This document shows positions 15,235-55,074 of a DNA stretch of 64,000 bases, one piece after another. This DNA is from Narcine bancroftii. Taxonomy: Eukaryota. How positions within the stretch are numbered: position 1 is the stretch's first letter; each line of letters opens with the position of its first letter. The notes beneath the pieces were generated by a model. The model was not told the origin of the DNA. It ran no database searches and saw nothing but the letters and a program-made list of their open reading frames with translations. The stretch covers positions 68,882,001 through 68,946,000 of the forward strand of contig NC_091478.1 in the NCBI RefSeq assembly GCF_036971445.1, given 5' to 3'. A program made the position numbers and the translations under genes.

Positions 15235-17102
15235 GGAGAAGCCCAGTACCTCTTCAGTGGATTGCAGTATGGTCGTTTTCAGTTGATCCCAGAGGGTTTC
15301 AGGAGACGTGTCCGCGAGGCAATTTGCATCCTCAAGCTTTGCTTGGAGGTTTGCCTGGAAGTTTCCTCTCACTACGTCTGACTGCATGTTTCCAACATTG
15401 AACCTCTTTCTGGGGTCTCCACTGTTCTTGAACTTTGGCTTGAAGTGAAGGTTGAGCTTGCAGCAAACAAGCCGATGGTCAGTGTGGCAATCCGTGCTGG
15501 GCATGACCCTGGTGTGGAGCACATCTCATTTGTCTCTTCCTCGCACCAGAACGTAGACCAGGAGGTGCCAGTGTTTGGATCGGGGATGCATCCAGGTAGT
15601 CTTCAGGCTGTCTCTCTGCTGGAAAAGGGTGTTAGTAATGAGAAGCCGCTGTTCTGTGCAGAGTCCCAACAGACAGGACAACTACTGACATGGTCTTTGC
15701 CCTCAGACAGCTCCAAGAAAAGTGCAGAGAACAAAACAAAGGACTCTACATCACCTTTGTTGATCTCACCAAAGCCTTTGACACCGTGAGCAGGAAAGGG
15801 CTTTGGCAAATACTAGAGCGCCTCGGATGCCCTCCCAAGTTCCTCAACATGGTTATCCAACTGCACAAAAACCAACAAGGTCGGGTCAGATCCAGCAATG
15901 AGCTCTCCAAACCCTTCTCCATTGACAACGGCGTGAAGCAAGGCTGCGTCCTCACACCAACCCCCTTTACTATCTTCTTCAGCATGATGCTGAAACAAGC
16001 CATGAAAGACCTCAACAATGACATCCGGTACCGCACGGATGGCAGTCTCTTCAATCTGAGGCGCCTGCAAGCTCACACCAAGACACAAGAGCAACTTGTC
16101 CGTGAACTACTCTTTGCAGACGATGCCATTTTAGTTGGCCATTCAGAGCCAGCTCTCCAGCTCATGACATCCTGTTTTGCGGAAACTGCCAAAATGTTTG
16201 GCCTGGAAGTCAGCCTGAAGAAAACTGAGGTTCTCCATCAGCCAGTTCCCCACCATGACCACCAGCCCCCACACATCTCCATCGGGCACACAGAACACAA
16301 AACGGTCAACCAGTTTACCTACCTCGGCTGCAACATTTCATCTGATGCAAGGATCGACAACGAGATAGACAACAGACTCACCAAGGCAAATAGCGCCTTT
16401 GGAAGACTACACAAAAGAGTCTGGAAAAACAACCACCTGAAGAAACACACAAAGATCAGTGTGTACAGAGCTGTTGTCATACCCACGCTCCTGCTCGGCT
16501 CCGAATCATGGGTCCTCTACCGGCATCACCTATGGCTCCTAGAACGCATCCATCAGCGCTGTCTCTGCTCCATCCTCAACATTCATTGGAATGACTTCAT
16601 CACCAACATCGAAGTACTCGAGCTGGCAGAGTCCGCAAGCATCGAATCCATGCTGCTGAAGACCCAACTGCGCTGGGTAGGTCACGTCTCCAGAATGGAG
16701 GACCATCACCTTCCCAATATCGTGTTATATGGTGAGCTCTCCACTGGCCACCGAGACAGAGGTGCACCAAAGAAGAGGTACAAGGACTGTTTAAAGAAAT
16801 CTCTTGGTGCCTGCCACATTGACCACAGACACTGGGCTGATATCGCCTCCAACCGTGCATCTTGGTGCCTCACAGTTCGGCGGGCAGCAACCTCCTTTGA
16901 AGAAGACCGCAGAGCCCACCTCACTGACAAAAGACAAAGGAGGAAAAACCCAACACCCAACCCCAACCAACCAATTTTCCCTTGCAACCGCTGCAACCAT
17001 GCCTGCCTGTCCCACATCGGACTTGTCAGTCACCAACGAGCCTGCAGCAGATGTGGACATACCCCTCCATAAATCTTCATCCGCGAAGCCAAGCCAAAGA
17101 AG
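15235..17102 (+). mobile_element. Young RTE LINE with inverted 5' segment, nested in the L1
   Basis: 15235-~15665 encodes the APE end and linker on the minus strand; ~15680-17102 is forward; tail gccaagccaaagaaga; probable degenerate TSD aatatataga/aatagacaga. Confidence 0.9.
15690..17072 (+). CDS. RTE reverse transcriptase, uninterrupted C-terminal 460 aa of a 5'-truncated ORF
   Basis: FVDLTKAFDTV, GVKQGCVL, LLFADD, FTYLG motifs; C-terminal Cys/His finger-like motif. Confidence 0.9.
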   Translation: MVFALRQLQEKCREQNKGLYITFVDLTKAFDTVSRKGLWQILERLGCPPKFLNMVIQLHKNQQGRVRSSNELSKPFSIDNGVKQGCVLTPTPFTIFFSMMLKQAMKDLNNDIRYRTDGSLFNLRRLQAHTKTQEQLVRELLFADDAILVGHSEPALQLMTSCFAETAKMFGLEVSLKKTEVLHQPVPHHDHQPPHISIGHTEHKTVNQFTYLGCNISSDARIDNEIDNRLTKANSAFGRLHKRVWKNNHLKKHTKISVYRAVVIPTLLLGSESWVLYRHHLWLLERIHQRCLCSILNIHWNDFITNIEVLELAESASIESMLLKTQLRWVGHVSRMEDHHLPNIVLYGELSTGHRDRGAPKKRYKDCLKKSLGACHIDHRHWADIASNRASWCLTVRRAATSFEEDRRAHLTDKRQRRKNPTPNPNQPIFPCNRCNHACLSHIGLVSHQRACSRCGHTPP

Positions 17103-18985
17103 AATAGACAGAACAGAGAAAATGCTATTACAATCTAAGCAGAAATATTATGAGCTAAGGGAAAGATCACATAAAGTTTTGGCTTGGCAGTTAAAAGCAA
17201 AACAATGTTCTAGCACAATTAATGCCATACAACAGGATAATGATGAAATGACTTATAAGCCACAAAGAATTAATGATGTATTTAAGGAATTTTATGAGAA
17301 GTTATATACATCTGACTCACTACAAGATGAAGAGGCTATAGATAATTATTTGTTACAATTAAGATTACCATCTCTGACTCAAGAAAGTTTAGATTGATTA
17401 GAGAGTTCTTTTACTGAGCAGATTTATGATGTGCTTACTAGTTTACATAATAATAAATCTCTGGGTGAAGATAGGTTTCCAGTTGAATTTTATAGAGTTT
17501 AAAGATTTATTGATTGCATTATTTATGAAAGTAATAGAACAAGCTTCTAATCAACGTTGACTTCCAGAAACTTTCTCTATGGCTATAATTATGCCTATTC
17601 CTAAAAAGGATAGAGACCCATTAAAATCTACTTCTTTTGGACCTATATCTTTGCTAAATGTAGATTATAATATTCTAGCAAAAGTATTAATGAAATTGGA
17701 TTAATGAATATCTTCCTGATTTAATAAATATGGATCAGATAGGTTTTGTTAGAAATAGACAAACTTTGGAGAATATAGTAAGGTCATAAAGTATAATTCA
17801 TTTAGCTAAGAAAGAAAGATTTGTTTTATTGTAGCTTTAGATGCTGAAAAAGCTTTTGATAGGTTAGAATGGGATTTTTAAAATTTAAGGTGTTAAGTAA
17901 ATTTGATTTTATTAATTTTATAAATTGGATTAAGGCCTTATATAGTAGTCCCAAAGCTAAAATGATTACTAATGGACAGATATCTCAATCTTTTAAATTA
18001 GTAGGCAGAGGTGTCCTTTATCTCCAGCTTTGATTGCTTTAGCTATAGGACCACTTGCACAAAAAATTAGAGATGATCAACAATTAAAGGGATTTGAGAT
18101 AAATCAGATACAACATGAAATTAATTTATTTGCTGATGATGTATTAGTTTATTTAACTCAACCACAAATATCACTACCAAGACTTTATAGTCATTTGTTA
18201 GATTATGGTAAGATAAATTGGGATAAAAATAAAGTAATGGAACTCGTAAAAGAAGATTATTCACAATGTAGCCAAGCAGTTTGTTTTAAATGGACAGATA
18301 AGATTAAATATTTAGGTATACGTATTGATACAAATTTGAAAAATTTATATAAATTAAATTATACTCCATTACTTAAAAATATAGAGGAAGATTTTTAAAA
18401 ATGGGTAAATTTACCGATGACGTTAATTGGGAGATTTTTCCACGACTTCAATATTTATTTCAAACTTTATCTATATCTTTACCTCAAATTTTTTTTCAAA
18501 ATTTAATTAAGGAGGTTAGGAAATTTCTTTGGAAAGGGAAGATGGTAAGAAAAGTCATTAGAAAAATTAACATGGAAATATGAACATGGAGGATTACAAT
18601 TTCCCAATTTTAAGAATTATTACAGAGCACCACAATTAAGGTTTTTAGTTTTTATGTTTGTTAAAATTAAACCATCATGGGTAGATATTGAATTAAATAA
18701 GATAGAAGTTAAACCAGATTGAGTTTATTTATAAATGGGATTTTAAATCTAATGCAATAGGCAAGGAAGCTCTGATATTAAAATATTTGTGGAATATCTG
18801 GAATAAAGTTAAATTAGAAATTGATGGATATACTCTTTCATTAAAAAACATCATTAATTAATCCCTTATTGATTTTTTTCAGAAGATAAGCCCTTTTTTT
18901 GAACATATTGTATCAGAAGGGAATCTCTAATTTGGGGACTGATATGATAATAATAGATTGATGTCTTTTATCAATTAAGATGATA

Positions 18986-19358
18986 TTCTTCCACCTGGAC
19001 TGCAGTGGGTGAATGCCTTGGTTACTGTGAAGGGCCCTTCCCTTCTTGGTTCGTTCCACTTTCTTCACAAAGCTTGCACGTAGACCTGGTCTCCTGGTTT
19101 AGTTGGTCCTTCCCCTTGGACGGTTTCTGGCTCCTTCAGTTTCTCCTGTGTAACTAATGGTCCATTGGTTAGTTATTGCATGTATTGTTTTAGCTCCATT
19201 ACCAATTGCTCCAAACTGGGTCCTTTGTACAGGCCTCTCCATTGGGACTCTGGCATGGGTCTCCACATGAGCACTTCATGTGGTGTCAGGGACGTCATCC
19301 GATTATTTTGCATGTGGTAGCTCATTAGTGCCAATGACAAGGCATCAATCCAGTTAAG
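18986..19358 (-). mobile_element. Retroviral/LTR-element integrase C-terminal fragment
   Basis: NWIDALSLALMSY...TSLTPHEVLMWRPM, then GDQVYV..KWNEPRREGPFTV (GPY/F module). Confidence 0.75.
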
Positions 19359-19529
19359 CACCTGAATGCAGCTGGCTGAAAGCGGAGGTTAAAAGGTCAG
19401 GCTGCTGACGTGGCAGTGAAGTCGTCAGCCTGAGGCGCCTGGCGTGAATCTTGAAGCACATTGCGCAGGCAGGCTAGTGCAGATTCAGTCATTTTGTTTA
19501 GCAGTGAAGGGAAACAGTGCATTTGAACA

Positions 19530-20558
19530 ATGGCTCCAAGAAAGGCTAGTAACTGGTCTGAAGAAGAGGTAAGACTGCTTCTAGACCACCTGACTCATGA
19601 ATCCCAGGAAAAGGAGCTTACTGGGACAGTGAGGGATGGTCCCACTTTTGAACGGCTGTCTGGATTGCTCGCAGCACAAGGGCACCAGCGCAGTAAAAAA
19701 CAGGTGGTCTCGAAGCTGAAGAGCATGAGGAAGAAATTCCACGCAGTCCTGGACCACAACAGGAGGAGTGGCAATGGGCGCAGGAAGTGGCAGTACTTCA
19801 ACCAGTGCCACACTCTCTGGGGGGTTAGCTGCTCAGCTACTCCCTTCAATGTAGCCAGCGCTCTGGAGACCCCTGAATCCCCAGAGCTCATCCCTGAGGG
19901 ATCTCAGGATTCACACAGCAGCAATGGAGGAGACATTCCAGTCCAGGAGGCCACCGCCGAGGACCTGGCAGCCATGGATTTGGATGTCTCCGAGAGAGGA
20001 AGCGCAGAGGTCACTGTCCCTGGAAGTGGTGAGGCGACATTCTCAACTGAGAACACAGGTACAGTAGCATTGAGGTTGTGATTATGGAGAAGCACTTAAG
20101 TCGAATGCTGATGCACTTTTCCTGTTTCCACCCACAGCCACTGGTCCCAGACGCAAGCGCCAGTGACTGACAAAAGGGCAGGTTCTCGCGAAGGATCTGC
20201 AGGCGATGATGTTGGTACTTGACAAGGAGGACAGTGAGAGAGACTGCCAGCATGCAGAGGAGGCGCTGGATCACGAGTTATGCTTGCCGACCAGAGGGAG
20301 GACGAGGCAGCAACGCGCCGCTCCGAGGTGGAGAAGCTTGCCCAGTCGATGTCTGAGTTAGCGGCCTCCCTGTGGGGACTGAGTGCTGCAATGGACAGGC
20401 AGTCAGTCATCTTCAATAGATTGGTCACGCGATTGGAGGCCTCCCCATCCCCAACCCCACAGTCATATGGTCAGCCTCATCCCATGTACCTGGCCCCTCC
20501 ATCAGTATGCCATTTCATTCCACACCAGTGCATCACAGTAGTGGACGCTTTGGCATGA
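19530..20558 (+). pseudogene. Harbinger Myb/SANT-like (trihelix) DNA-binding gene; exon 1 19530-20058 open, intron 20059-20137, exon 2 disrupted
   Basis: NWSEEEVRLLL...RSKKQVVSKLKSMRKKF...WQYFNQCHTLWG; exon 2 gives ATGPRRKRQ* and then a frameshifted coiled-coil. Confidence 0.82.
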
Positions 20559-20786
20559 CTGAGATGCTGGGATCCAGTACTGGTTCCTCATTTTCCCCTC
20601 CCCCCAACTCGTTCCTCTCAATGCTGCTAACCCACTGTTCATTTTTGTTGTTCATGAAGCCCCTCATAAGTGCAATGTTATGTGCGACACTTTAAGGATG
20701 GAAACATTCAGCAGTGAGATGCTACGATGCTGGGTGGTTGTGTTTATTGTGTTTACTGTTTTAGTGTTTGATCTACTGTGTTCAAG

Positions 20787-20966
20787 CTGAGGAGCTCAGA
20801 CCGGGGCCCATCTCCGGGAGAATGCGCAGACGGCCGGCTCGGCGGATTGGAGCCGATTACCGGGGAGCGCTCGGCGGCCATTGGGGAGGCCGGCTGGCTC
20901 CCATCCTGCTCGCATGGCGCAGTTCAAGCTTGTGGCCTATTTCCCCCAGATTAAAGCAGCGAGGAG
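20787..20966 (+). repeat. Diverged copy of the CDT1 5'UTR and first 17 codons (source 23415-23618) inside the Harbinger
   Basis: Shared ggagccgattaccggggagcgctcggcggccattggggag and tcctgctcgcatggc...gcctatttcccccagattaaagcagcgaggag. Confidence 0.97.
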
Positions 20967-21182
20967 TGGATTTGCACTGTTATTTGTCCATTCCATGGTT
21001 TCCTTCAAGTTTAAGAATGATGTGAAATGTTAATGTTGAGATATCGACCTCAGATATTTATGAGTCATTGTGATTTCTCAAAGAACATCTTTTATAAAAT
21101 TTTTGACAAGCACACAAGTCACAAGTTTCATTTATATTCACTCATTCATTCGCGAGAGCACATAACAGGACAGGCAGCAAGC

Positions 21183-22778
21183 TCAAGTCACCACTTTGGG
21201 TGTGGAGGGTGGAGGGGGGTACAAGTCATGGAAAATGGGGAGCTGGGTAACAGGGACATACCCTTCCATGATGGACATGATGGCAGAATGGATGGCCTGG
21301 TGCCCATGGTCCTGCTGATCAGCACAATCTGCGCTATTGGGTGCAGGACCATCTGCTTCAACTAATGTCCACTCTGAAGGGAAGTCTTCCTTGTTAATCT
21401 CACATATGTTGTGCAGTACACAGCAGGCAAACACAACATCTGGGACTAAGGTGGTAGAGATATCTAGACGCTTGGTCAGGCATCGCCAGCAGCCTTTTAG
21501 ATGGTCAAATGCATGTTCCACCACTATCCTTCCTGAATTAAGGGTCTTGTTAAATCTTCGCTGATCCTGATCCAGTACTCGGTGCTGTGTGAACCCCTTC
21601 ATCAGCCAGCTTCGTAGGGGGTATGCCGCATCACCCACAAGATATGCTGGAACCTCCACTCCCTCAACATCCTTGGATACCTGCAGGCACAATGATGCAG
21701 ACATGTAGTTAACTCATGCACCTGAATGTTGACACAGCCAGCATGCATAACATTTGAAACATGGAACTTTGAAGGGTGAACACTCACGTCACGAGGGAAG
21801 AGGTATCTGCCCTGGTCCTCAGCTTTTCTAAACAGAGGAGAGTTGGCAAGCACTCGGACATCATGCGTGCAGCCCGGCCACCCCACAAACACATCTGAGA
21901 AGCTGTAACATGAATGGACATCACAGTGGAAATCACACAGTGAAATTATAGTCATTGGAAATGTGATGTACATCAATAGAGGCTTAACTCACCAGAATCT
22001 GTTGTCAACCACCGCTTGCAGAACCTCCGAATGCCACCCTTTGCGACTGTAGTAGGCTGCAGCATCCACGCTGAGAGTGATAATCGGAATGTGTGACCCA
22101 TCAATGGCACCAGCGCACACTGGGTATCCCCTTTGGGCGAAGCCATCAATGGTCTCCTGGAGACATGCTCCACTTGGCAGGGAGATGAAATGTTTACCAA
22201 GGAACTTCCTCAAGGCAGCAGTCACCTCCTGCACCACCATGCACACGTTGCTGACGCCTATTCCAAAGATGGTACTGATGGATCGATACTCACAAGGAGT
22301 GGCATACCACCACAAGGCCACAGCTAATTAAAGTCCGAGCTGCAATGGTCACTGTAAGTCCGGCCTATGTGCCTTCAGGTGAGGTTCTATGAGTTCCAGC
22401 ACAAAGTGAAAGATGTCACGCGACATACGAAAGTGTCTGCTCCACTCAGCATCATCAAATTTGGTGAGGACATTACTCCAGAACTCAGCAACCTGTGGTC
22501 GGTTCAACCTCCAGAGAGACCAAGGTGTCACCATAGCTAATTGACTGACCAGCAGCATTCGCCTTTGTTTGCATGCTTACGCTCCACGCGCCTTTCGACT
22601 GCTGTCTTCTTGCCCTCAACCTTTGCAGGAACCTTCTGATTGCACCCATGCGATTTTCAGATCTCAAGGACGGTTGAAGAGCTTCAACAGCACAAATAGC
22701 CTTTCCAAGGTTCTGCCGTATCTCATTCTGAGCACTCAGAAAGGCTGAAATCATCATCATTATGTCTCCTTCCTGCAC
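21183..22778 (-). pseudogene. Harbinger DDE transposase (HARBI1-like family); exons 22778-21993, 21902-21788, 21680-21183
   Basis: HFRMSRDIF, GAIDGSHIPI (D), VGWPGCTHD, YLVGDAAYPL (D), RIVVEHAF.HLKGCWRCL (E), CCVLHN; GT-AG introns in phase; stops and a frameshift in exon 1. Confidence 0.92.
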
Positions 22779-23362
22779 AGGGTTTGCCCTGTGTTCCTTC
22801 TTGTCGCGCTCAAAATGACATCACGCCAGTGGGGGGTGGGGAGGACAGCTGACACTGGGCAGGAGCGGAGTGGGGTCAGAGCTGCATCCTGTGCAGCTGT
22901 CTCCTTTAGATGGCCAGCGTGGCACTTTAAACGCTGCCACCTGAACGGCAATTCAAAGGGCCGCTTCTGCTTCTTCAGGCGCATCCTTAGCGGAGAATGC
23001 ACCTGAAAGAGCCGAGTGAGTCAGACATGGCTATTCTTACCGCAATTAAACTAACTGCGGAGCCTTCGGGCAGTGGACAAGAAGGGGTTTCGTTGGAAGA
23101 AATGCTCATACGTATTGCAACCAATTCTGCCTAGCTAATAGAAATGGAAAGTTTGGAAGATAAATAAATTAAGAAAAAAAACCCACAAGTTTATGGTTAA
23201 ATCAAGAGGAAATTGTGGCTGGAACTTGTTTGGAGGCGATGGGGGTCCGAACTATCGCGCGGGAATGTAACAAATGGACAAGAAAGCAGAGCGGACGGGT
23301 CGTGAAACCAGGCATTAAAAAGAAGGGGGAGCCTTGATGAATCAGTCAGCCAGCGAAGTCCC

Positions 23363-23384
23363 CACGTGACCCGCGGGTCACGTG
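23363..23384. promoter_or_regulatory. Perfect 22 bp palindrome with two E-boxes in the CDT1 promoter
   Basis: cacgtgacccgcgggtcacgtg. Confidence 0.7.
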
Positions 23385-23388
23385 TTGG

Positions 23389-23400
23389 TTTGGCGCGAAA
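23389..23400. promoter_or_regulatory. Overlapping dual E2F site in the CDT1 promoter
   Basis: tttggcgcgaaa, the reverse complement of the DHFR-type TTTCGCGCCAAA; CDT1 is a known E2F target. Confidence 0.85.
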
Positions 23401-23565
23401 TTTCGGAGCTGCCCCTGAGGAGAGCGGAGCAGCTCGGACAGGGGCCCACCTCCGGGAGAAGGCGCAGACGGCCGGCTCGGCTCGGCTCGGCGGATCGGAG
23501 CCGATTACCGGGGAGCGCTCGGCGGCCATTGGGGAGGGAGGCCGGCGGGCTCCCGTCCTGCTCGC

Positions 23566-24099
23566 ATGGCCCAGCTCAAGCTCACGGCCTATTTCCCCCA
23601 GATTAAAGCAGCGAGGAGGAGAGACGCGCCGGCGGTGAAGCACAAGGCGGGGAGCGGAGCCGGCACTGGATGGCGGAGGAAGGCAGTGCCCCCCGCTCCG
23701 GTGGGGGACCGGGACAGCCGGCCTCCGGCGTTCATCGAAGCGCCCGAGCTCCAGGGAGGCTTGAAAGCGGAGGCGGCGGCCGGGCGTGGAGGTGACACCC
23801 CCCCCACCCAGGGGGGGTCCGCGCTGGAGTCTCTGGTGACCCCGGTGAAAGGGGAGCAGGCGGGCCCCGGGGCCGATTCGGGAGCAGCCGGACCCGGACC
23901 CGGTGCCGACGGGACGGGTAGGCGGCGGCGCAGCACGGCGAAGAAACGCCACCGCTCCGAGCCGACCGATGAAGGCGAGCCGGCAGGTCCCCGTGCGCAG
24001 CGGCCGCGCCGCGTCCCCTCGGCCCGGAGGTGCCTGGTGCTGCAACCGGACGAGGCGCTTCAGCACACGGGGCCCCTTTCGGAGGCGTCCGAGGCCCCG
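23566..24099 (+). CDS. CDT1: DNA replication licensing factor Cdt1, exon 1
   Basis: MAQLKLTAYFPQIK N-terminal PIP box; RxL-type motif SARRCL; donor CCG|gtaaga, phase 0. Confidence 0.9.
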
Positions 24100-25329
24100 G
24101 TAAGAAGAGACATTCAATTGGGGACGTCCCAAAAACACTCGTCGCTGTTTAGAAAATGGAAGGAGAAAGAAATGGGTCTGCGATTTGAGTCTTTGTCATG
24201 ACCCAAGGAGTCTGTTGGGAAGGGCTCGGTTAATTGGGGGGGGGGGTCTCTGGGCTGACGAGAAGCTTGGAGGTGCTGTGGTTAAAAAAAACCAGCAATG
24301 CTGGAGAAAGTCCGCAGCCTCCAAAGGAGGTAAAGGTATGTTACCTTCACCTCGTGCCTGAGCCCTTCGATAAAGCATCCGAATTAAAGGGGGGGGGAGA
24401 GAAAACAGACCCGACAGCCAGATAAAAGGCTTGAATTTGCAAAGTGAGATTTGGCTTTGCTCTGAAAAGAGGCAGGCAAGAGACTGAAGAGCCTATTTCT
24501 CCCCCTATTGCCCTTATGGTCTTGTGTGCGAGGGGAATGATCATAGGTGGGTGGTGGCTGGCCTGATGGGGACGTGCCCCCAGTATGATTCTGAAGATCG
24601 GCTTTCCTGGGATTCAGGCAGGGCGGGTCTATATTAGTTTGATGGTGGTGGACTGGCCTGTGACCAGTAGTGTGGTGCAGGTATAGCTTTGTTCATCACT
24701 ATTCCTCGTGAATAGATGGAAACTACTTGGTGTGATAGTAAGGTAGCCATTGACTACAAAATGGGTTGTATCGTGCTCCTTGACAAACATAAAAGTAAGA
24801 AATAGGAGTAGTTCATCTAATCCACTGAGCCTGCTCTGCTTTTCAATAAGTTCATGGCTGGTCTGGCCACGGACCTTTCCTATAAATCCTTATATTCCCG
24901 TAATGCTGACTGTTAGAAACTTTCTCCACAAACTAAACATTTCCTCCTATCCACCCATAACCCTTTATTTTTCTTGTAACCAAGCGCCAAAGAGATTTTT
25001 TTAAAAGTCCCTATTGTACCATCTTCCACCACCTCACCTGGCAATGCCTGAGGTAGTCTATTTTGCTCCTTGGCCAGAGAATTTCACAGATTCACCACCC
25101 TGGGAAAAGCAATTCCTCCTTATCTTTATCCAAAATCTACTCTGAATTTTAAGGCGAAGTCCCCAAGTTCTCACCTCACCTACGAAAGGCAACAAATAGA
25201 TAGATTATTGTATATGTTTCTGAAAGACCTTCTTCTGAATTCGGGGAATAAAGACCCAGGCAATTCAGTCATGCCTCAGACTAACCTCAACTCTGGAACA
25301 GCCTAAACATTGGTACTCAACCTTTATTG

Positions 25330-26170
25330 CACTAGGCCCCACTTTAACTTTTCAAAAAAGCATTTGCCCCACCATTAGTGGAAAAAAGTTATATATTCAA
25401 AAGAAGATTTAATTAACTCATTTACTGCAAGTCCACTTCAATGCAATTAAGGGCAGGAATACACTGGAACACATATTTCATATTCAACTACTACTTCAAT
25501 ATGTAAACCCTCGCAAACACACATTCAATAATTGTAGTCACTTCAGTGGGAACCTTGCCCCTGACACTGGGATGCAGATTTTTTTTTGATTCGAGGGATT
25601 AATTTTGTTAGTTTCAATCATAAAATCTCCATGTTTTGTAATTTTCATTCAGTTTTTCTTAGCTTATCACTAACAGCACTGAAGCCACATTCTGCTAAAT
25701 AAGACAATGGAAAATGTATCAATAGTTCCCTTGCTAAAGTAGTCTAATCTTGCATGTTCTGCATTTTTATCTGTTTAAACAGATGTTCACATTTGGCATT
25801 AACTTTAATGGCATTGATGCACTTGATCACAGAATGCAGTATCGTATAGAACAGGGGAAAACTTTTTTGGCAACTAAGTTCTTGGTAGTTAACACAATGC
25901 ACAACCAACAGTGACATAACTTTACTACTCTCCTTGGGGGAAAAAAATCTTTTGAGCAGTTTTCTTCAATGCTGCCAGTGAATTCTTTCAAAATATGGTG
26001 CCGCATTCTAATTGTGTATGTAAAATGTTAGGAATTATTACTTTTAAACACTTTCATTTTATAATTTTAATGTTAGTGATTAAGATTCCACATTTATTAA
26101 ACTTGATTTTCACTGCTAGATAAGTTATTTGTTTAAACTTTCTGTTAAAAATTCGTGTAATTATGTGTAT
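25330..26170 (-). mobile_element. hAT (Buster/Charlie) transposase 3' fragment in CDT1 intron 1
   Basis: 25665-25745 is the reverse complement of the hAT dimerisation-domain sequence at 50990-51060 (FP.SYL.ECGFSAV). Confidence 0.7.
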
Positions 26171-26184
26171 TTTGGAAAGATCGA

Positions 26185-26660
26185 TAAGATTGAACAAGTG
26201 CAAAGACAATTTACAAGGATGCTGGGACTTGAAGAGTTGAGTTACAGAGAGAGGTTGAATGGGCTAGGACTTTATTCCTTGGAGCATCAGTGAATGAGGA
26301 GAGGTTTGATAAGAGGTATACAGAATTATCAGGGTATGGATAGGGTAACTGCATACAGGCTTTTTTTTTAATGGAGGTTCTGTAAGACGAGAACTACAGG
26401 ATGTGTTGAGGGTAAAAGATGAAATGTTCAACAGGATTATTGGGGGGGAATGTCTCCATTCAGAAGGTGGTGAGAGTGTGGAACAAGCTACCAGTGGAAG
26501 TGGTGGATGCGGGTTCAATTTTGAGGTTTAATATTGGAAGTGTATGTGGATGGGAGGAGTAGGGAAGGTTATGGTCTGAGTGCAGGTTGAAGTAATTGTT
26601 TGGCCTGGACTAGATTGGCAAAAGGGCCCGTCTGTGCTGTGGTGTTTAATGGTCCTAATA
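26185..26660 (+). mobile_element. CR1 LINE 3' fragment
   Basis: tttacaaggatgctg..gagttgagttacagagagaggttgaat..ctaggactttattccttggag, typical CR1 C-terminus. Confidence 0.75.
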
Positions 26661-27054
26661 TATGCAGTGTTATGTCCTGACAAATTCAATGTACATTATT
26701 GATGACTGTTCTTTCCAACCTTTCTTGTCAACATGTTTGATTTCAAATTTTTTTCAATTGTTATGTGGTGTCATCAATTTAGTGCTGATTTCCTCTGATA
26801 AATTGCATATTTCCCACTTTCACTGGCTGTGTTACCATCAGAACTTGCTCTCTGATGTATGTATTATAATAAAAGTTGAGAGCCTTGCAGTACAAAATCC
26901 AAATGTAATCTAATTACAATTACCAGGGATGTACTGGAAGCTGGTGATACAAATGCATCTTATTGTGGAAGGTTTCGTTTGTTGAGTTATATAGGTTAGG
27001 ATAATATTGTGGGCCGAAGGGCCGGCACTGTAATGTTCTATGTTTACCTTTCAG

Positions 27055-27141
27055 GATTCACCTGCACATGAGACCACAATTTTGAATCAAGGAATTTCCA
27101 ACTTTCCAAGATTACAAAATTTAAGCAGAAATAGCCAGCAG
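27055..27141 (+). CDS. CDT1: Cdt1 exon 2
   Basis: tttcag|GAT...CAG|gtaaga; 87 bp, open, phase 0-0; poorly conserved region, inferred from splice sites. Confidence 0.75.
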
Positions 27142-27305
27142 GTAAGAAATTTGAACAAAACCCATCAACCTGTGGCCTGTGATACACCTGGCCTTGGTGT
27201 TCTGTTGAATCAATAGAAAAGCCGACTGATAATTTCAGATTCTGAAACTAAATATTAAAGGAATTTATGTTGAAAACACTTGTCTTCAATTTGTTTGTGG
27301 TGTAG

Positions 27306-27526
27306 GTTCTGACTGTGCCTAAAAAGGAAGGTCTTTCAGCTTTAAAAAGCCAGCTGCAAAGAATTCGGAAGTTCAACCATAATGCTAAATTACTTGTTCC
27401 TTCTGAATTGAGTACTGATACCAAGAATCGTCTTAAACTGGTTCGTGAACTGCAATCGAAAGTACAAGAAAACAAAGAGCAGAAAAAGACAAAAGAGCAG
27501 GATGAAAAGTTAGGTGTGGATGAAAG
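27306..27526 (+). CDS. CDT1: Cdt1 exon 3
   Basis: tgtag|GTT...AG|gtgagg; LKSQLQRIRK...LKNRLK-like (TKNRLKLVREL); phase fits exon 4. Confidence 0.85.
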
Positions 27527-27653
27527 GTGAGGAGAAAACAAGTTTTAATAAAAACTTGTAGAACAATGTAAAAATACAAAGCAGCAAGCCTGTAAAAGTC
27601 TTCAGTTCATGTTTAATTGATCACAGCTGCCTTCCTAATTCATTTCCTTCCAG

Positions 27654-27848
27654 GGTGAAGGCCCCAGCATACCAGCGTTTCCACAACTTAGCACAGGATG
27701 TCCCCCCGGGCTTGGCTTTGCCTTTCAAATACAAGGTGTTGGCAGAGATGTTCCGTTGTATGGACACTGTTGTGAGCATATTGTTCAATCGCTTGGAGAT
27801 CATTACCTTTGCTAAGGTGAAACAAGGTGTTCAGGACATGATGCGGAA
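27654..27848 (+). CDS. CDT1: Cdt1 exon 4 (geminin-binding domain start)
   Basis: [39 protein letters not shown]...QGVQDMMRK. Confidence 0.97.
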
Positions 27849-29365
27849 GTGAGTACGGATCAGATTAGCATCTAGTATGAACTCTAGTGACTCTGTTTGG
27901 AGATATCTATTTCTGTCCTTGGCTATCAGAAAATATTAATTGAAAAGAAGTTTGTGTGCAGAGCTACAATTTATAATTCATTCCAAGAAATACTTTTTTT
28001 TAATGATTATCAATTGACATCGAATAAATGCTTTCCAAAACACCATTGAAAGCTTTGTGATTATAAAATTGGGTATCAGGCAACAATCTCTCAGAAGTGA
28101 TATTTTAGATTGAATATTTAAAAACAAAATGAAGGAACTATTGAAATGTTACTGATGGAGCAGAACACCATAGGAAAAGATGTGCTGATCATGTTGCTAA
28201 ACTGAACTAATACCATGATTCATATCCTTATTCACAGATATGACTAAATGCCTCTTGCATGTAACTCTTGTGTCTCTCCACACCCTTTTCCCCGATGGCA
28301 TGTTTCAGCATCTATAAACACTCTCAATGTAAAAAGAAACAAAAATATCATGGTCTCTTATTTAAACTTTCTGCCTTTCACCTTAAAGCTGTGCCTTCTA
28401 CACCCTGAGGATTATCCATCTTGTCCTTGCATCTCTAATTTTATAAACTATCAGGTTTTTGATCAATCTCTGTTCAGAGAAAACAATTTTGGTGTGTTCA
28501 GCCTTGTAACTGATGTTTATGTTCAGATGGAAGCTGTTTAAGACATCTCATTCAATGTGTTGGTGTGACAATTTTGCAAGAATATTATCAGAATGTTCAT
28601 CAGTTCTATTTAACACCACAAAAGTTACACAATATGAATTGTATTTATTCAGATTTATGTTTAGATGTCGTCAAGTTGGTACTTTTTTGCATTCAACTTG
28701 GCAATGTTCCACAATTAAACCTTTTTGGCTTGAAATGGGTAATTTATTAGAATGAATAACTGGAGTAAGATTCCCACAGGATCCATTGTAATTTTTACTG
28801 GGAGATGTGAGAGGGATTAAAATTTGTTCAAATTGCTTTGGCAATGGCGAGCAAATTTTGTTGCTATAACTTGGAAGTCAGATACTGATCTGGGAATGGA
28901 TAGATGGCATGCAGAAGTTTGGAGTTCTATTCCACTTGAGAAAATCCTGTTGAACATTTTATCTTTTACCCTCAATCTCTTATAATTTAAGAGGTAAATA
29001 TACATTTTGTGAAATATGGAGCCCATATTTACAAACTGTTGGTATTAAAATTTAAATGTATCTTGAACATTCCCTTTCTCTTATAGGTCTCTAAACTTTT
29101 ATATGTTTAAAAGTATCGGAAAGTGAAGTACTCCTGTTGTGGTTTTCTTGTCCTTTTTTTTTAGTTTATAGGTTTTTCTTTTTTAAACTTTTCTTAATAA
29201 AATACCACATGTATTTGGATTAAGTTTGAAATATTGTGACATGTTTGCTAAGTAGTTTTATATTAAAGTATATATCAAAATGCTTACAAACTAATACAAT
29301 ATATTGGAAAATTAATTGCTGGTTATGTTAGCTTACAAACAGTTAATCTTGGAATATCTTTGTAG

Positions 29366-29511
29366 ACAATTTGAACAGCGAAATATCGGACAGATTAAAA
29401 CGGTTTACCCATCTGGATACAAATTTAGACAGGAAAAGGGAATCCGAACATGGAATGACTGTGTAAAGAAATCCAGCTACCAGCTCACCATCGATCCTGT
29501 GTTTGAAGGAG
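29366..29511 (+). CDS. CDT1: Cdt1 exon 5
   Basis: QFEQRNIGQIKTVYPSGYKFRQEK...SSYQLTIDP; ag/gt boundaries. Confidence 0.96.
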
Positions 29512-31204
29512 GTAAATGCTCTTCTCAGGGCTAAGAGTGAATTATATTGGATATTTTCTGGCTTTGTCATTTATGGTTTTTTTTAAACATAGACTTTGTA
29601 TGATTTTACCATTCTGATGAGTGTCTGACATCTTGCCATTGGTCATTCACACGGGAACGACCAAAATTGCAAATCTCCATTTCTGTCCGCGATTTTAGAC
29701 AGCATACCTGGCATTCTCCAAACAAAAAAAGCGCAACGTGTAACTCAGCGGTGTCTGTGTCTAATGTCACGTATAATATACAGTATTTATCAGCGTGTTA
29801 GACCCATTTGTTTTACCCAAAATATGGCTCAAAAATATTCTCCATGTTTTGTCTGCCAGGTTGAAATTAGGGTAATTTCAACCTGACAGTAATCCTGCCA
29901 GTCCCTGCACTGGTCACTGTTGTATTGAGAAAGTGTCTGGTCCATGAGAGATGAGTCTGAACACAAGGGTTTGCTATCAAATGTCACTTTTATTAAAACA
30001 CAACACGCATGGAAATAAAGCATATACGCGCACAATGTGTAAAGGAGCTTGCAAAAATGCACAATTCATAAAGGAGTGTGGGAATAATGCTTTGTGATTG
30101 CCCTCACAATCTAGCAGACCTGGCGTCAAATCTGGGGTTAGGGTTCAGGTTAGTTTGTCAATATGTGGGCAGCAGGATAATCATCCCTCTTATTTTCACT
30201 GGTCTCTGAGGTTTTGCATCACTGTAGATAGCCACTTTTGGTCAGTCCATGCTTTCATTTCTAGCTTGCTTCTTTCTAGCTCTTAGTGGGATTAGTTGTG
30301 CATTTTGATATGTCCTGATGTATCTGGATAGTGGGTGACCTTGTGTTCACACCTTGGGGTTAGATTTGGGATAGTGTTAGGGTTCAGCATGTGGCTGGAG
30401 TTAGAGCTAGGGTCAGTGTTAGGGTTAGGCTTAGCAGCCCACATCAACATAGAGAAGGCAGTGGACTGCCAGGACAGCGGGTTGTGTGAAATAGCAGGCA
30501 GCAGACCACTGAGACAGCGGGCTGCGGGAAAGTCCAAGCAACAGGCCACCGGAGAGAGCAGTCAGCAGTTTAAAAAAAAAAAAAAAAATTACAAATATAC
30601 TAAAAATTAAGGTAGACAATACACTTTGACCTGAGTTGGTTTGGGAATGCCTGCAGTTTATTTTAGACTGCAGGCATTCTGGGAAATTGACAAGGAGTCT
30701 AAGAGGAAAACTGTTGGAACAGGCATGGGACCCTCATTCCCATTCCAAGCTTTTTACATGGCATGTGTTCTGGGGAAATGGGAATAATTTCCTGAAACAC
30801 AGCAGCTGAGTTTTTAATAAAAACATCTTTGTCTATCTTCAGTCACATTTGCATTTCAAGAGGGGACAGAAGGTCTAGACAAAAGGTGTCTAGTTGGTGA
30901 GATAAACAAGAATTGAAGCAGCAGTTGAATCAGCCCTCCTCTCAAGGTTGGGTGCTTTTCTGCTTCTCCCCCTTGGGTATCACTTCCTTGCTCTCAGCAC
31001 CTCCGGAACTTGAACAGCAATTATGAACCATTTTTTAAAATCTATGGCCCCCATGGGACTCTGCTCAAAGTTTATGGGCCCCATTCCTTGTGAAGCAGTT
31101 ATTTAGTTGGTTTCTTCCGTATTTCTCTTACTACTGGTGACCTATAATGTCAGTCTGTGGCCCACCCTTAAATATGCTGTGTCCGCTATTAAGAATGGCT
31201 GCTC

Positions 31205-31318
31205 CTTCTCCGTCTGGTTCGGAAGTGCTCTGTCCTTCTGATCGAAGCTAAGGCCGAATCCCACCCGGCGACTAGCAGCAAAAAAGAAAAGAAAATGAAA
31301 TTAAAAGAAAAAAAACAA
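31205..31318 (+). mobile_element. Short retroposed insertion with A-rich tail and 14 bp TSD
   Basis: aagaatggctgctc (31191-31204) / aagactggctgctc (31319-31332) flank a ~75 nt body plus A tail. Confidence 0.7.
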
Positions 31319-32301
31319 AAGACTGGCTGCTCGAGAGTGTACTCTTGACCTGTGGAAAAGAATTCATTTAATTTTAAATAAATGAAACTACCCAGACACT
31401 TTTGGCTATTGCAAGTTCTGTGCGATCTCCCTTTCTCCAGCCCTCTAACACCCAGAATTGATTCAGTTTGGAATTACGTGACTGTTGGGAGATGATGTAC
31501 CTGTTAATCTTAGTTTATTGAGGCAAAGCATCTTAAATCACTCAGGATGTCTCATCTGAAAGTTGGTGATGGTTTCTGAAAAGTTGATGGATTGTATGGT
31601 TAGTGAGTGACTGAAATCCTTCATCAGTTGGTGACAATTATTCTCCCAAGTCAATGTCCATTTTCCAGCCTTTCTAATGGAAAGTTCAAATATGTGCAGC
31701 CCGATCAGATTTTTTTGCCTCAATCTAATTGACTGCTAGTTTACCTTGAAGATGTACCCCTTTTTATAGATGTGTCAGGAGAAAGTACCTCTCAGCATCT
31801 GCCCTGTCAAGTCTTTTGAATCTTGCATTACTCTAAGGGACTCTAAATCCAATCTACTTGATCTTTCCAAAGATATTCCTCCCATGAAGTCAATCCTATG
31901 ACATCTAGTGCCCCACCATAAGATAAAATGACACACTTGTCCTATTTGTTGCTTTTTTAAAAAAATATTTTTTCCTTCAATTTTAGGTTAATAACTGATT
32001 AGCTAATTATTTAATAGTTGTATTTTTCTAGCTTTTTAAAATTGCTGTCCCAGCTTTTAAAAAAAAAAACTTAGCTTTGCACTTTCTGGTTATCAAGCAG
32101 CAGTGTGGTCACTCCTTGCTTGTATTTTGTTAATTTAGCTCCTTTTTGTTGCTTTAATTCAAGTCTCGTTCTTCACGGGGTGTTGGGGGGGGGTGGGGTG
32201 GTGGTGGGTGGTAGTAGAGCTGAAGGATATTTTTGGTTGAATGTCTTATTTATGAATGCCTTTTTCCTGCTTTCCCCCCCACCCCCCCCACCCCTTTCAA
32301 G

Positions 32302-32405
32302 AGGAGAATTCAGAAGGCCACACACAACTAACCGCTTCTCTCATGCTTCAGCGCCGTCGCATTTTCATTCGAAACTTGACAAACTTGGTCAAGCAATACC
32401 ATAAG
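32302..32405 (+). CDS. CDT1: Cdt1 exon 6
   Basis: QLTASLMLQRRRIFIRNLTNLVKQYHK|gtaagc. Confidence 0.95.
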
Positions 32406-33004
32406 GTAAGCTTCTCTGTCCTGTCTTCAAGCTATGGTGCCTGACATTTTTGGTATCAATACTTGTGTTGCCAGCACACTGGCAATGATGCTAGGTTCTG
32501 CCATCTAGTCTGTCCAAGGACAGTTTGTTTTAATTCTAGAAGGAATACTTCTGATCTGTAGTGCCATGGAAAGCATGTTTAGTGTGGAAGTGCATTCAAT
32601 TATATTTTTAAAAAGAGCAGATTAAGATTTGGCTCAACATTAATTCATTTAAGAAGCTTAATTAAGCATATTTTGAATGCTCATGGTATGACTTGGATTG
32701 ATTTTGTGGTGGTCAATGGGGAATTGTCTGACATAATTCAACTGATTTGTTGTTAAGGACATTCTCTGGTTTGTGACCCTTCACATCCAGGTATTTTAAA
32801 AAAAGTTGTGTCTTGCACTGATCTTAAAAAGTAGTGTCTTGCTGATCTTGCATTTATTCCTTTTATCAGTGTCTGTACACTACAACAAAACACAATGCAA
32901 CCTTCAATGGTACTTGCAGGTTCCTAACATGACAGACTATCTCAATAGAAGGTGACAGCAGATGTGTGCAAACACCACTATTTCCAACTCCTAGGGAATG
33001 CACA

Positions 33005-33459
33005 AGGCTCTTTCAAACTGCCATGTGAAATGGGGTTAACCGATCGATTTGCATGGTTAGCAACTGAATTACATGGCGATTTGTAAGGGTCCAAATAGGT
33101 CCTTGTCCTACCTCAGGGGTGGTTAGGGAACCCTGTAAAACTTACTAGCACCCAGGACCGGTTACTCTGGTGATGTGTGTGCTTGCATTGCAGGGAAACC
33201 CCTGGCTGAGGTGCTCCTGTCGCGATTGGGGGGAAGAGTGGGGGCCATGATCGGGGTGTGGCAGTGGCCACAGCTGCAATTAGGGTGGGCATGGGGGGGG
33301 GGGGGGGTTGCAGTGTGCCACTGCTGTGAACGCCATGCTGGTTCGCAGCAACGATTCAATGCAGGAGGAATGGCAGTCTTCCTTGTCCATTATCCTCCAT
33401 GCTGCTAGAACTGCAGAGTCCCAAGAGGGATACCCGGGTGCTGTAATTTGAAAGCACCT
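33005..33459. mobile_element. Harbinger-type MITE, same family as 55075-55641
   Basis: Left end aggctctttcaaactgccatgtgaaatggggttaacc; right end tttgaaagcacct. Confidence 0.65.
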
Positions 33460-33478
33460 ACTGTTTGTTCATTGCTAA

Positions 33479-34481
33479 TGTTATGAGCCCAGAGGACCCC
33501 AATATCCAGCAGCAATAGATATTCATCAAGATAAATGGTTACTTAAACAAAAGTTGCTTTTAATTATCTTTAAACATGAAAACAGAATCAAACTTTAACT
33601 TATTACTATTAACTTTACCCACTTCTAATTCTAAGCGCACATGTATGTAAGTTCAGAAAAGTTCTTTGATTCACAGTCCAATCTCACTTCACTCCACCAA
33701 GTTCACCAGTATCAGGCAATTCTTAAACTGTGCAGAGAATTTAACATTTATGAAATTTCACCAGGCTTTTGTGCTTGAAATGTCAATGGTTACTGCTCAG
33801 AAAGGTTTTTGTTGGGTTTCAGAGAGATTTGTTGCTTGTTGGACACAAACTGATTCCTTCCGATCAACCACTTCAATGTCTTGCTGAAGAAACTTACCCC
33901 ATCAGGGTTTTCCAAATGATAACCTCTTTCTTTCAGGTCACCACTGAGTTCCTTTTTTTCCCCCTTATTTCAAGTGAAACATTATACAGCCAGTCCTCTC
34001 TTATGTGGACCACAATGGCTTTGACCAGGCTGAAGTAAGAACTCACAACCTGTCTTCAAAATGGGGTGTCTCCACAAGCTTGCCAGCTTGTCATGTTCCA
34101 GTCCCAGCTGCTACTGTAGAAGTCTTCCCTCCCTCTCTCTCGCTCAGAGAAAACCACATGGCCCTCTTAGAACAGCCAATTGCCTTCTGACAGACTGCGG
34201 TACTGGACCTAATCATCCGAGTCCGTTCATCTGTTGCTTTCCAAAACAATAATCCATCACTCCAGTGTGTCCAATTAACATCTACTTGTGAAGTCATTCT
34301 TCAAAGCTTTTGCAAAGGCACTCGGAGCCTGGACTGTCTGGCTTGAGCAGAGCTCTGGCATTTTAAATGAGATCTGTTTTGAAGTGTTTGAATATGATGT
34401 ACACTTAAAAAAAATCTGCCACCATTTATCTCCTTTAAAACATATCTATATACAATAGAAAATATAACATAATTTGTCACA
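33479..34481. mobile_element. LTR-like repeat of ~1 kb
   Basis: TGTTA...TCACA termini; no convincing TSD. Confidence 0.35.
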
Positions 34482-35522
34482 CTGCTTTATCAAAATCCTG
34501 GAACAACAAGAGTAGTTGCACTGCTGGTGTACCTTCAATGTGTGAACTACAAGAGTTAACGAAAATTCTCAAATTTTTGGATTGGTATTCTAGTACAGAA
34601 CCAAGGGTGCGCTACTTTGGAAGTGTCTTCTTTTAGGTGATGTCAAGTGGACACTCTGTTGTGCTAATAAATTAATGCAAAGTTTCTATGGCCTTGAAGA
34701 TTGGGAGATTTATCTCTGCCGGAGAAAACAGGTTCTAATTCATTGTTTGAAAGCATGATGATGAATTACTGTTACATTATTGTTTGCTTACAGCAGTAAC
34801 TGCAATTTTCCATGTGTACTTCATTGGCTGTGTGCATTTAAAAAAAATCCTTTGGCACTCCATCCATGCTCATTTTCTTGTACATTTGCATAATTTCAGA
34901 AGTAGCAGAGAGGCCAGTAAAAGTTGACCTTGCCAGTAGTGCTCACAGCCCATAATACAGAAATTGTGCAGTTGAAACTCTGAGGGATAAACCCATTAGT
35001 TGGTGTCTGCTTTAGTTTATCAGTGAGCAATACTCGTAGAAGATTGCTGTACTTTTTTCTGCTAATAATTTCTCTTAAGTATTTCTGAGTTGTTAATTCT
35101 GCAAAGGCCTGGTGCAAAAGGGGTGTTTGTTGTCTCCCAACATGTTCCTGCAGTAAAATAACAGTTCTTGCATTGCAAACTCCAGGATATAAAAGATAAA
35201 ATTTCATGAAGTCCATAAATGCTCATCAAGACAATTCCCTTGTGAACATTTGAAACATTGACAAAAATAGGAATCAGGAAAAACTTAAATATTGCCACAG
35301 GCGGTTGTGGAGCCTTCGTCATTGGGTGTATTTAAGGCGGAGATTGATAGGTTCTTGATTAGCCAGGGCATCAAAGGTTGAGGGGAGAATGCTGATGAGT
35401 GGGAAAATGGATCAGCTCAGGATTTAATGGTGAGGTAGACTCGATGGGCTGAATAGCCCATTTCTGCTCCATTGTCTAAGGTTTTTTTTAATTACGACAC
35501 ATTTTATTTTTTCCCCTCCAAG

Positions 35523-35711
35523 ATATTTTTGGCTTCGCTTAATCCTCCGATGTATGTTCCCGATGACAAGTTAACACGATGGCACCCACGTTTTAATGTG
35601 GATGAAGTTCCAGACATTGTTGCTGCTGAACTTCCACAGCCTCCAGATTTTAAAAAGCTAACAACTGCTCAGGAAGTACTGGATAAAGCTCACAGCATGA
35701 TGAGCTCAAAG
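35523..35711 (+). CDS. CDT1: Cdt1 exon 7
   Basis: [47 protein letters not shown]. Confidence 0.97.
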
Positions 35712-36194
35712 GTACCACTTAATGTTTTTAAAAACCTGTAAATTATTTGGTGAGTTCAGTCTTTGTGGAGGGGCAGAGATGGGAAAAATTTTGTTAAAGT
35801 ATGGTAGTTTCAGTTGACTACATAAAAACATTTGCTAAGTGAGGTGAAAAAAAAACTTGGTGGGGGGGGGGGGCAGCAGAGCCCTGGTTAGAATGGCTGT
35901 TGGGGGTGACATTCATATTATGTTGTTCAAGTTTTAAAAAAAAACTTGACCTTATAGAATTCACAAGCCACTACCCAAAATTTTTAGATGTGCATTTAAA
36001 TTTACTCTTATTCTATATCAATTTGTTCTTTACTTTGAAGTATATAATTTTAAAGCATGGAAACAGCTGCAGCAGCCCAAGTTGTCTCCCTAATAAGCAA
36101 GTCCCGATTACCTGTGTTCAGGAAATAGCTGTAAAAACCTTTCCTATTCATGTACCTGTTGAATGTCTTTCAAATGTTAGAGTTGGCCATGCTT

Positions 36195-37330: not shown

Positions 37331-37741
37331 GTAGCACAGTGGTTTTCAGACTTTTTCTTTCCACTCACATTCCACCTTGAGTAATCCCTATGCCATAGGT
37401 GCTCTGTGATTAGTAAGGGATGACTTAAAGTAGTATGTGAGTGGCCGGAAAAAAGATTGAGAACCATTGCTCTTGACCCAATTGTTACTGAAATATTTTG
37501 CTTGAGAAAAATTGTCATTGGCCAATTTCCTTGAGCTATGAAACTGTGCACCTAATGAATCAATTGGGCATGATTAAAACAGTGGTTATCAAACTTTGTT
37601 TCCACTCACATGCCACCTTAAGTAATCCCTTACTAATCAGATAGCACCTATGGTACAGGCACTGTATGATGTGGTACCCATTTTCTAAAAATGTTCTGGG
37701 CTGAATGTTGTTCCTGTGACTTGAATTTTTTTGATTTTCAG

Positions 37742-37894
37742 ATGGAGAAAGCACTTGCTAACATGGCCCTCAAATCTGTAGAAACTGTCACAGCTGCTAA
37801 TGTTGAACAAAAGGAGCAAAATGTCACAAATCCATGTCCAAGTCCTGGTTCTTCTAATGCACTGAAAGGGATTTCACAGAGTCTGCTTGAAAGG
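37742..37894 (+). CDS. CDT1: Cdt1 exon 8
   Basis: MEKALANMAL...ALKGISQSLLER|gtaagt. Confidence 0.96.
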
Positions 37895-54884: not shown

Positions 54885-54900
54885 GGCCTCGCGCACTCAC

Positions 54901-54989: not shown

Positions 54990-55040
54990 TTTTTCAGCAT
55001 CGTGGCGGGGCCGCGGGGGAAGGAGCGCGAGGGGGCGCGG

Positions 55041-55052: not shown

Positions 55053-55074
55053 ACCCGGAGAAACGCCACGCTTT

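What the first reader, a model, noticed from the sequence alone, without database searches (positions are those of the whole stretch)
20787..21033. Harbinger transposon carries a captured copy of the neighbouring CDT1 5'UTR and PIP box
Seen: 20787-20966 is a direct, moderately diverged copy of 23415-23618, lying between the convergent Myb and transposase genes 2.6 kb upstream of its source. The copy keeps the ATG (20914) and opens a 39 aa ORF, MAQFKLVAYFPQIKAARSGFALLFVHSMVSFKFKNDVKC* (to 21033), compared with CDT1 MAQLKLTAYFPQIKAARR. The copied source starts ~15 bp downstream of the E2F site, near where a TSS would be expected, and excludes the promoter motifs. Known: the Cdt1 N-terminal PIP box binds PCNA and serves as the CRL4-Cdt2 degron; Pack-type DNA transposons capture GC-rich gene 5' ends mainly in plants. 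Inference: this is local template-switch or RNA-templated capture in a vertebrate Harbinger, and might yield a PIP-box micropeptide or decoy.
Basis: partly seen in the sequence, partly recalled or inferred. Interest (0 to 1): 0.8.

Follow-up and report, generated by a model that had tools for sequence, protein, structure and literature searches.

The report
CDT1 start captured twice by transposons
A dead DNA transposon next to the replication gene CDT1 was patched with a copy of the gene's first 180 bases, a known kind of repair accident that probably does nothing, but an older, unrelated transposon had captured the same gene start and carried it to at least nine places in the genome.

Summary
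The copy is real: 20789-20966 matches CDT1 23414/23426-23618 with 13 substitutions and 2-3 indels. All 39 scored sister Harbingers lack it; their empty site shows 3 nt lost, no target duplication, no poly(A), and a 4-nt microhomology at the 3' junction. A genome search finds no mobilised copy. This is a single-copy Pack-TIR made by local repair, a class already described in vertebrate PIF-Harbingers (Tan 2021). The 39-aa ORF looks passive: its tail is the family's default sequence, the degron threonine is lost, a new out-of-frame ATG precedes it, and this element is broken. No transcript of the insert was listed. Following the weak hits gave the better result: an older hAT-like element with 6-bp target duplications carried CDT1 5'UTR, exon 1, part of intron 1 and part of exon 5 to at least 9 loci, and a derived MITE family keeps a 24-nt CDT1 relic. 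Multicopy Pack-TIRs are rare in animals. Both captures begin within about 3-25 nt of each other, where CDT1 RNA-like contigs begin, which keeps RNA-templated repair alive (about 0.3) against DNA gap filling (about 0.6).

The parts
19359..23013 (.). PIF/Harbinger DNA transposon copy; left 158 nt with the left TIR are missing; right TIR ends at 23013, about 380 nt upstream of the CDT1 E2F-like site
   Evidence: sisters 3.5-3.7 kb with TWA-type flanks
19530..20558 (+). Myb/SANT gene of the Harbinger (exons 19530-20058 and 20138-20558); premature TGA at 20164, 1-nt loss at 20503
   Evidence: PF13837; 13 of 20 sisters have no stop there
21183..22640 (-). Transposase gene remnant (5' limit approximate); premature TAA at 22328-22330, 1-nt and 7-nt losses at 22573 and 22598
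   Evidence: PF13359; 17 of 19 sisters have no stop there
20789..20966 (+). Captured CDT1 5'UTR plus first 17 codons, replacing 3 nt of the element
   Evidence: absent in 39 of 39 scored sisters
20963..20966 (+). 4-nt microhomology shared by element and CDT1 at the 3' junction
20914..21033 (+). 39-aa ORF: 17 CDT1-derived codons plus 22 codons of default Harbinger spacer sequence; overlapped by an out-of-frame ORF from a new ATG at 20822
   Evidence: tail open in 19 of 20 sisters
23389..23400 (.). E2F-like palindromic site of the CDT1 promoter (label recalled), not included in either capture
   Evidence: sequence
23414..23618 (+). Source of the Harbinger insert: CDT1 5'UTR and PIP-box codons
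   Evidence: RNA-like contigs start at 23394 and 23419 and end at the 24100 donor (weak hint)
23427..24476 (+). First segment captured by the older hAT-like element: 5'UTR, exon 1, about 375 nt of intron 1
   Evidence: 61-69% identity
29321..29452 (+). Second segment in the older element: end of intron 4 and first part of exon 5, joined to the first segment
   Evidence: present in 7 of 9 carrier loci

Best explanation
A Harbinger inserted just upstream of CDT1. At or after that time a double-strand break in its spacer was repaired by templated synthesis: the right-hand end annealed to CDT1 exon 1, 2.6 kb away, through a 4-nt microhomology, copied about 180-200 nt towards the transcription start, and was joined back with 3 nt lost. 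The template was most likely the neighbouring DNA (transposition-independent gap filling). The patch has since drifted neutrally in an element that cannot move. Shown: single copy, empty sisters, junction anatomy, origin from present-day CDT1, broken element. Inferred: break repair, DNA as template, neutrality. Independently and earlier, a hAT-like element captured the same gene start and did transpose (at least 9 loci).
For: 39 of 39 scored sisters (of 262 candidates) lack the insert; junctions; the insert query finds only itself, the source and four old 72-81% copies. No TSD or poly(A). The insert shares with present CDT1 the loss of a ~50-nt UTR segment and the D-to-A change that old copies lack. 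Of 13 differences, 6 arose in the source, 6 in the insert (3 CpG-type), 1 unclear. Insert-lineage non-CpG change 3-4 of 140 vs element 121 of 3200 from the family majority: same order of age. Distance under 5 kb, internal breakpoint, small deletion and microhomology match the gap-filling class.
Against: The 5' junction has 0-2 nt of microhomology, and the 5' breakpoint falls within about 3-25 nt of that of the older capture and between the starts of two RNA-like contigs; plain DNA gap filling does not predict this. The core PIP residues (Q, L, Y, F) and the +4 lysine are kept and the ATG context is unchanged. Capture after insertion is not shown: CpG retention 15 of 18 vs 77 of 124 gives P=0.11, and no orthologous empty element was seen.
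Confidence: 0.6

Rival explanations
1. RNA-templated repair: the broken end annealed to the nascent CDT1 transcript, was extended by a reverse transcriptase (LINE in trans or a repair polymerase) and ran off at the cap, so that the 5' breakpoint marks the TSS. Outcome equally neutral.
For: Microhomology lies at the end that would prime on sense RNA, the other end is nearly blunt. Two independent captures start at nearly the same place. Spliced RNA-like contigs start at 23394 and 23419 (contigs cannot show a start, one study, weak hint). Class 2 templated insertions have this anatomy and are argued to be RNA-derived (passages). RTE-like RT is in the window.
Against: The insert lies within exon 1, so no splice junction can testify. 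The older capture holds unspliced intron 1 and intron 4 sequence. A promoter-bound roadblock to DNA synthesis would give the same shared breakpoint (inference). The same polarity is possible on a DNA template.
Confidence: 0.28
2. Whatever its origin, the insert acts as antisense or small-RNA source against CDT1: divergent transcription from the CDT1 promoter runs leftwards through the transposase gene and across the insert.
For: Head-to-head layout. The minus-strand AATAAA near 21095 found 16 times among 20 sisters is absent here and the next one (20743) lies beyond the insert. One RNA-like contig (22925-23243, low depth) bridges this copy's right end. Family members are present at high depth in the RNA-like runs.
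Against: The insert diverges from its source at a neutral-looking rate on both lineages; the bridging contig has no strand and may be DNA.
Confidence: 0.07
3. The ORF is translated as a PIP-box micropeptide or PCNA decoy from the Myb 3'UTR.
For: ORF open; core PIP box and +4 lysine kept; ATG context identical to CDT1; an ATTAAA lies at 20950.
Against: Thr of the degron is Val; of 4 coding changes that can be on the insert lineage 3 are non-synonymous; an insert-lineage change made an out-of-frame ATG at 20822 whose ORF overlaps the peptide; 9 ATGs lie between the Myb stop and 20914; the promoter motifs were not captured; the left end of the element is lost; the tail is open in 19 of 20 sisters.
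Confidence: 0.03
4. Assembly artefact, or a genome-wide repeat not derived from CDT1.
For: None found.
Against: 13 substitutions with lineage-specific states; read-derived contig across the 5' junction; only 6 matches genome-wide, all CDT1-related; PIP codons belong to the spliced CDT1 transcript.
Confidence: 0.02

Closest known systems
Single-copy Pack-TIRs by gap filling (Tan et al. 2021, PMC8277862; read abstract, sections 7, 8, 9, 12, passages, and a search of the supplements)
   Same: Source under 5 kb away on the same chromosome, microhomology at one breakpoint, internal breakpoint, small deletion, one copy; PIF-Harbinger cases in Xenopus with sources about 1 kb away are listed.
   Different: Cartilaginous fish (their only one, elephant shark, had 0); host is a full-size two-gene element; the same gene start had been captured before; orthologous empty element not tested.
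Multicopy Pack-TIRs (Pack-hAT-N8_XT with CAPSL 5'UTR; Ssk-FB4; same paper)
   Same: For the older element: hAT-type ends, GC-rich gene 5' end, distant copies with one shared chimeric structure and distinct TSDs.
   Different: At least 9 loci on 7 contigs (3-5 in the published cases read); two discontinuous CDT1 segments; 6-bp TSD; old and decayed; gave rise to a MITE family with a 24-nt relic.
Class 2 templated sequence insertions (Onozawa and Aplan, PMC5110952; passages read)
   Same: No TSD, no poly(A), microdeletion and microhomology at a repaired break.
   Different: Those are mostly from distant loci; this source is 2.6 kb away.
CRL4-Cdt2 PIP degron (PMC8871960; passages read)
   Same: Core PIP box and B+4 basic residue present in source and copy.
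   Different: TD motif is TA in this CDT1 and VA in the copy; TD survives in 3 of 8 old copies.
hAT6 (6-bp TSD hAT group; PMC12730594, passages read)
   Same: 6-bp TSD and hAT-like transposase remnants in the older family.
   Different: No phylogenetic placement done; IS3EU also makes 6-bp TSDs.

Membership tests
PIF/Harbinger | DDE_Tnp_4 transposase plus Myb/SANT gene | tested here: met
PIF/Harbinger | Short TIRs and 3-bp TWA-type TSD | tested here: inconclusive
   Met in sisters; this copy has only the right TIR and a non-TWA flank
Single-copy gap-filling Pack-TIR | Non-TE sequence with a parental copy, flanked by TE on both sides | tested here: met
Single-copy gap-filling Pack-TIR | Single copy, source nearby | tested here: met
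   2.6 kb; counts are lower bounds
Single-copy gap-filling Pack-TIR | Microhomology at a breakpoint, small internal deletion | tested here: met
   4 nt at 3' junction, 3 nt lost
Single-copy gap-filling Pack-TIR | Orthologous element without the insert in an outgroup | not testable with these tools
   No related genome held; one search gave no diagnostic piece from organism B
Mobilised (multicopy) Pack-Harbinger | Several copies with distinct TSDs | tested here: not met
LINE-mediated retrocopy (class 1) | TSD and poly(A) tail | tested here: not met
Multicopy Pack-TIR (older element) | Shared chimeric structure at distant loci | tested here: met
   9 loci, 7 with the exon 5 piece
Multicopy Pack-TIR (older element) | TIRs and distinct TSDs | tested here: met
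   3 of 4 carriers with both ends have 5-6 of 6 matching, all different; family 9 of 11
hAT6 | hAT transposase phylogeny | tested here: inconclusive
   Pfam blank; Atlas features 0.94 to DUF4371 (56% of members), FAM200/ZBED5 and KIAA1586 clusters, a lead only
CRL4-Cdt2 PIP degron | TD at positions 5-6 | tested here: not met
   VA in copy, TA in source
CRL4-Cdt2 PIP degron | Core PIP box and B+4 K/R | tested here: met
Functional micropeptide | Transcription and translation | not testable with these tools
   Only contigs available, table cut

The most novel reading that the evidence does not exclude
The CDT1 transcription start is a recurrent capture hot spot because broken transposon ends are repaired on nascent CDT1 RNA and run off at the cap. 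Two unrelated DNA transposon superfamilies did this at the same start, one spreading the piece to at least nine loci and seeding a MITE family. Some animal Pack-TIRs would then be RNA-templated, not DNA gap-filling products, and their 5' breakpoints would be fossil TSS marks.
Probability: 0.2. Interest if true: 0.72.

Novelty: new member of a known kind. Interest (0 to 1): 0.42.

Why it matters
The flagged insert alone is a clean but ordinary example of a described class. Its value lies in the pair: one gene start, two independent captures, one stranded and one amplified, in a lineage where the published survey found none. That makes a standing question testable at one locus and then genome-wide: are Pack-element 5'-end captures templated on DNA or RNA? 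The old copies also act as fossils of the CDT1 5' end and show that this ray's CDT1 lost the Asp of its degron TD motif after the first capture.

Tried and rejected
Inverted-repeat search of 18000-24500 found no TIR pair because the left end is lost. A first CpG test (19 of 22 vs 78 of 135, P=0.01) used unpolarised, miscounted sites and was dropped; the corrected test gives P=0.11 (the 15 of 18 is my hand count). My notebook's '40/40 sisters' is 39 of 39 plus the window itself. The idea that the old CDT1 copies are retrocopies was rejected: they hold intron sequence and TIR ends. The idea that the insert came from an old copy was rejected (identity and shared derived states). The idea that the 24-nt motif is native hAT sequence was disfavoured: none of 6 transposase-bearing copies showed it next to the left end and L100 diverges where it starts. 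A cryptic splice origin for the intron 1/intron 4 join was considered: a GC-donor-like site coincides but the acceptor is not AG. No RNA holder is on record; no listed RNA-like contig holds the insert, but 4309 pieces were not shown, so this is no evidence. Joints skipping the insert carry the sisters' 3 nt and are read as sister copies. Pfam on old transposase pieces was blank. A weak CDT1_C hit on the Myb tail (E 0.012) is taken as chance. Earlier-findings look-ups were empty. No complex prediction was run. Paper searches with no report of this case: (open-access library only; Repbase/Dfam not searchable, so the elements may be catalogued there).

Full report
Observation. The direct repeat is present as described. 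Window 20789-20966 aligns to 23414-23618 with 13 substitutions in 178 columns and gaps of 10 and 4 nt, plus a further 10 nt at the 5' end in one of two possible readings. The source is CDT1 exon 1: a downstream exon hits PF08839, and exon 1 is identical to a 664-aa protein labelled CDT1 of Narcine bancroftii, whose exons map across 23566-39640. The copy lies between a Myb/SANT gene and a DDE_Tnp_4 transposase gene. A DNA-run contig with no differences crosses the 5' junction.

The host element. Twenty fetched sisters define a 3.5-3.7 kb Harbinger; this copy spans 19359-23013 and lacks its left 158 nt. It carries a premature stop in each gene and frame-breaking losses. It differs from the family majority at 121 of 3200 non-CpG sites (3.8%; sisters 3.1-5.4%). 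The right end has 2277 candidate relatives.

The insert is a single local event. Of 262 candidates 40 were scored; the 39 sisters all match both flanks and none the insert. The empty site shows that 3 nt were replaced, with no TSD and no poly(A); 4 nt are shared by element and CDT1 at the 3' junction and 0-2 nt at the 5' junction. The insert as query returns 6 matches: itself, the source (86% with gaps) and four at 72-81%. Using eight old copies as outgroup, 6 of the 13 differences arose in the source, 6 in the insert (3 CpG-type) and 1 is unclear. Three or four non-CpG changes in 140 sites do not differ from the element's rate (P=0.22-0.39), and CpG retention leans younger without significance (P=0.11). 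Capture therefore happened at or after insertion.

The ORF. The last 22 codons are default spacer sequence, open in 19 of 20 sisters. The core PIP box and +4 lysine are kept, which is likely by chance at about 4% divergence (my estimate). The degron needs TD at positions 5-6 (passages); source has TA, copy VA. Of four coding changes that can lie on the insert lineage three are non-synonymous. An insert-lineage change created an out-of-frame ATG at 20822 whose frame runs to 21025. Promoter motifs were not captured. Expression could not be tested.

The older capture. The weak hits led to 9 loci on 7 contigs (L057-L065, plus a 99.97% duplicate on C505) with CDT1 5'UTR and exon 1 at 61-69% identity (the protein search ran in a stricter mode, so this is a floor). 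Seven also hold part of intron 1 and the end of intron 4 with part of exon 5; five show the direct join. They share termini with a family of 120 candidates. Six-bp TSDs match at 5-6 of 6 in 9 of 11 elements scored and in 3 of 4 carriers with both ends, each different. Transposase remnants of the family resemble DUF4371/FAM200/KIAA1586 clusters (a lead; their link to hAT is recalled), and 6-bp TSDs are described for hAT6 (passages). Carriers differ pairwise by 14.5% on the exon 5 piece, about 1.5 times the per-copy age of the Harbinger (my arithmetic). They keep a ~50-nt UTR segment and the Asp codon that present CDT1 and the insert both lack, so the two captures are independent. None of 20 further family loci holds exon 1 or exon 5, but 8 of the 9 short members aligned carry a 24-nt motif matching 23427-23450 (19 of 25 in L082; 0 of 5000 shuffles), starting where a transposase-bearing copy diverges. 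I infer that this MITE descends from the CDT1 carrier.

Shared breakpoint. The old capture starts at the position homologous to 23427-23428, the new one 3-5 nt upstream of it; if a 32-nt tandem unit seen in five old copies was ancestral in CDT1, the old start moves to about 23405 (read by eye). Spliced RNA-like contigs of two samples of one study begin at 23394 and 23419; contigs cannot show a start, so this is a weak hint. The old copies were found with the insert as query, which forces overlap but not a common start.

Mechanism. Best reading (0.6): DNA-templated gap filling of a break in the element, then neutral drift. Main rival (0.28): synthesis on nascent CDT1 RNA with run-off at the cap; the old capture's intron content argues against mature mRNA, and a promoter roadblock could give the same coincidence on DNA. 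Antisense regulation (0.07) is allowed by the layout and by loss of the sisters' poly(A) hexamers near 21095. Peptide function 0.03, artefact 0.02.

Comparison and novelty. Tan et al. 2021 report 370 Pack-TIRs in 100 animals, 56.9% within 15 kb of the source, 67.6% with microhomology, 4 multicopy; Harbinger occurs 37 times in their table (I saw two rows) and elephant shark has 0. The flagged insert is a new member of that class. The multicopy hAT-like CDT1 element is a new member of the rarer class. I found no report of either, nor of repeated capture of one gene start (open-access library only). Interest 0.42.

Noticed in passing
L057-L065 (G000 C5, C8, C15, C16, C17, C21, C23; duplicate on C505): Older multicopy hAT-like Pack element carrying CDT1 exon 1 and part of exon 5, 6-bp TSDs; derived MITE family with a 24-nt CDT1 relic.
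   Followed up: yes
window 23584-23589: This CDT1 has TA, not TD, in its PIP degron; old captured copies show that D was ancestral. The 5'UTR gained 6 substitutions since the Harbinger capture, 4 of the 6 from A/T-or-neutral to C/G or T to C/G, as biased gene conversion might give (inference).
   Followed up: partly
window 19408 joined to 22845: A high-depth internally deleted derivative (MITE) of the Harbinger family appears in three of the four runs laid.
   Followed up: no
window 20370-20560 and 21290-21660: Sister Harbinger copies are deeply covered in two RNA-like runs with joints that look like transposase introns; some family members may be transcribed.
   Followed up: no
window 24260-24476: CDT1 intron 1 holds a high-copy repeat (1289 candidates); the internal join of the old capture falls at its end.
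   Followed up: partly
window 18980-19358: Fragment resembling an LTR-element integrase by eye (recalled; Pfam gave no such hit) abuts the truncated left end of the Harbinger, within L1/Tx1-like remains; an RTE-like LINE lies at 15240-17100.
   Followed up: no
window 54390-55121: Minus-strand exon resembling APRT exon 1 (recalled, not tested) with a GC-rich minisatellite behind it; fits the CDT1-APRT tail-to-tail order recalled from other vertebrates.
   Followed up: no
L077, L078 vs L061: The right end of one carrier plus its flank recurs at two other loci (89-95%), so it was copied again as part of something larger.
   Followed up: no
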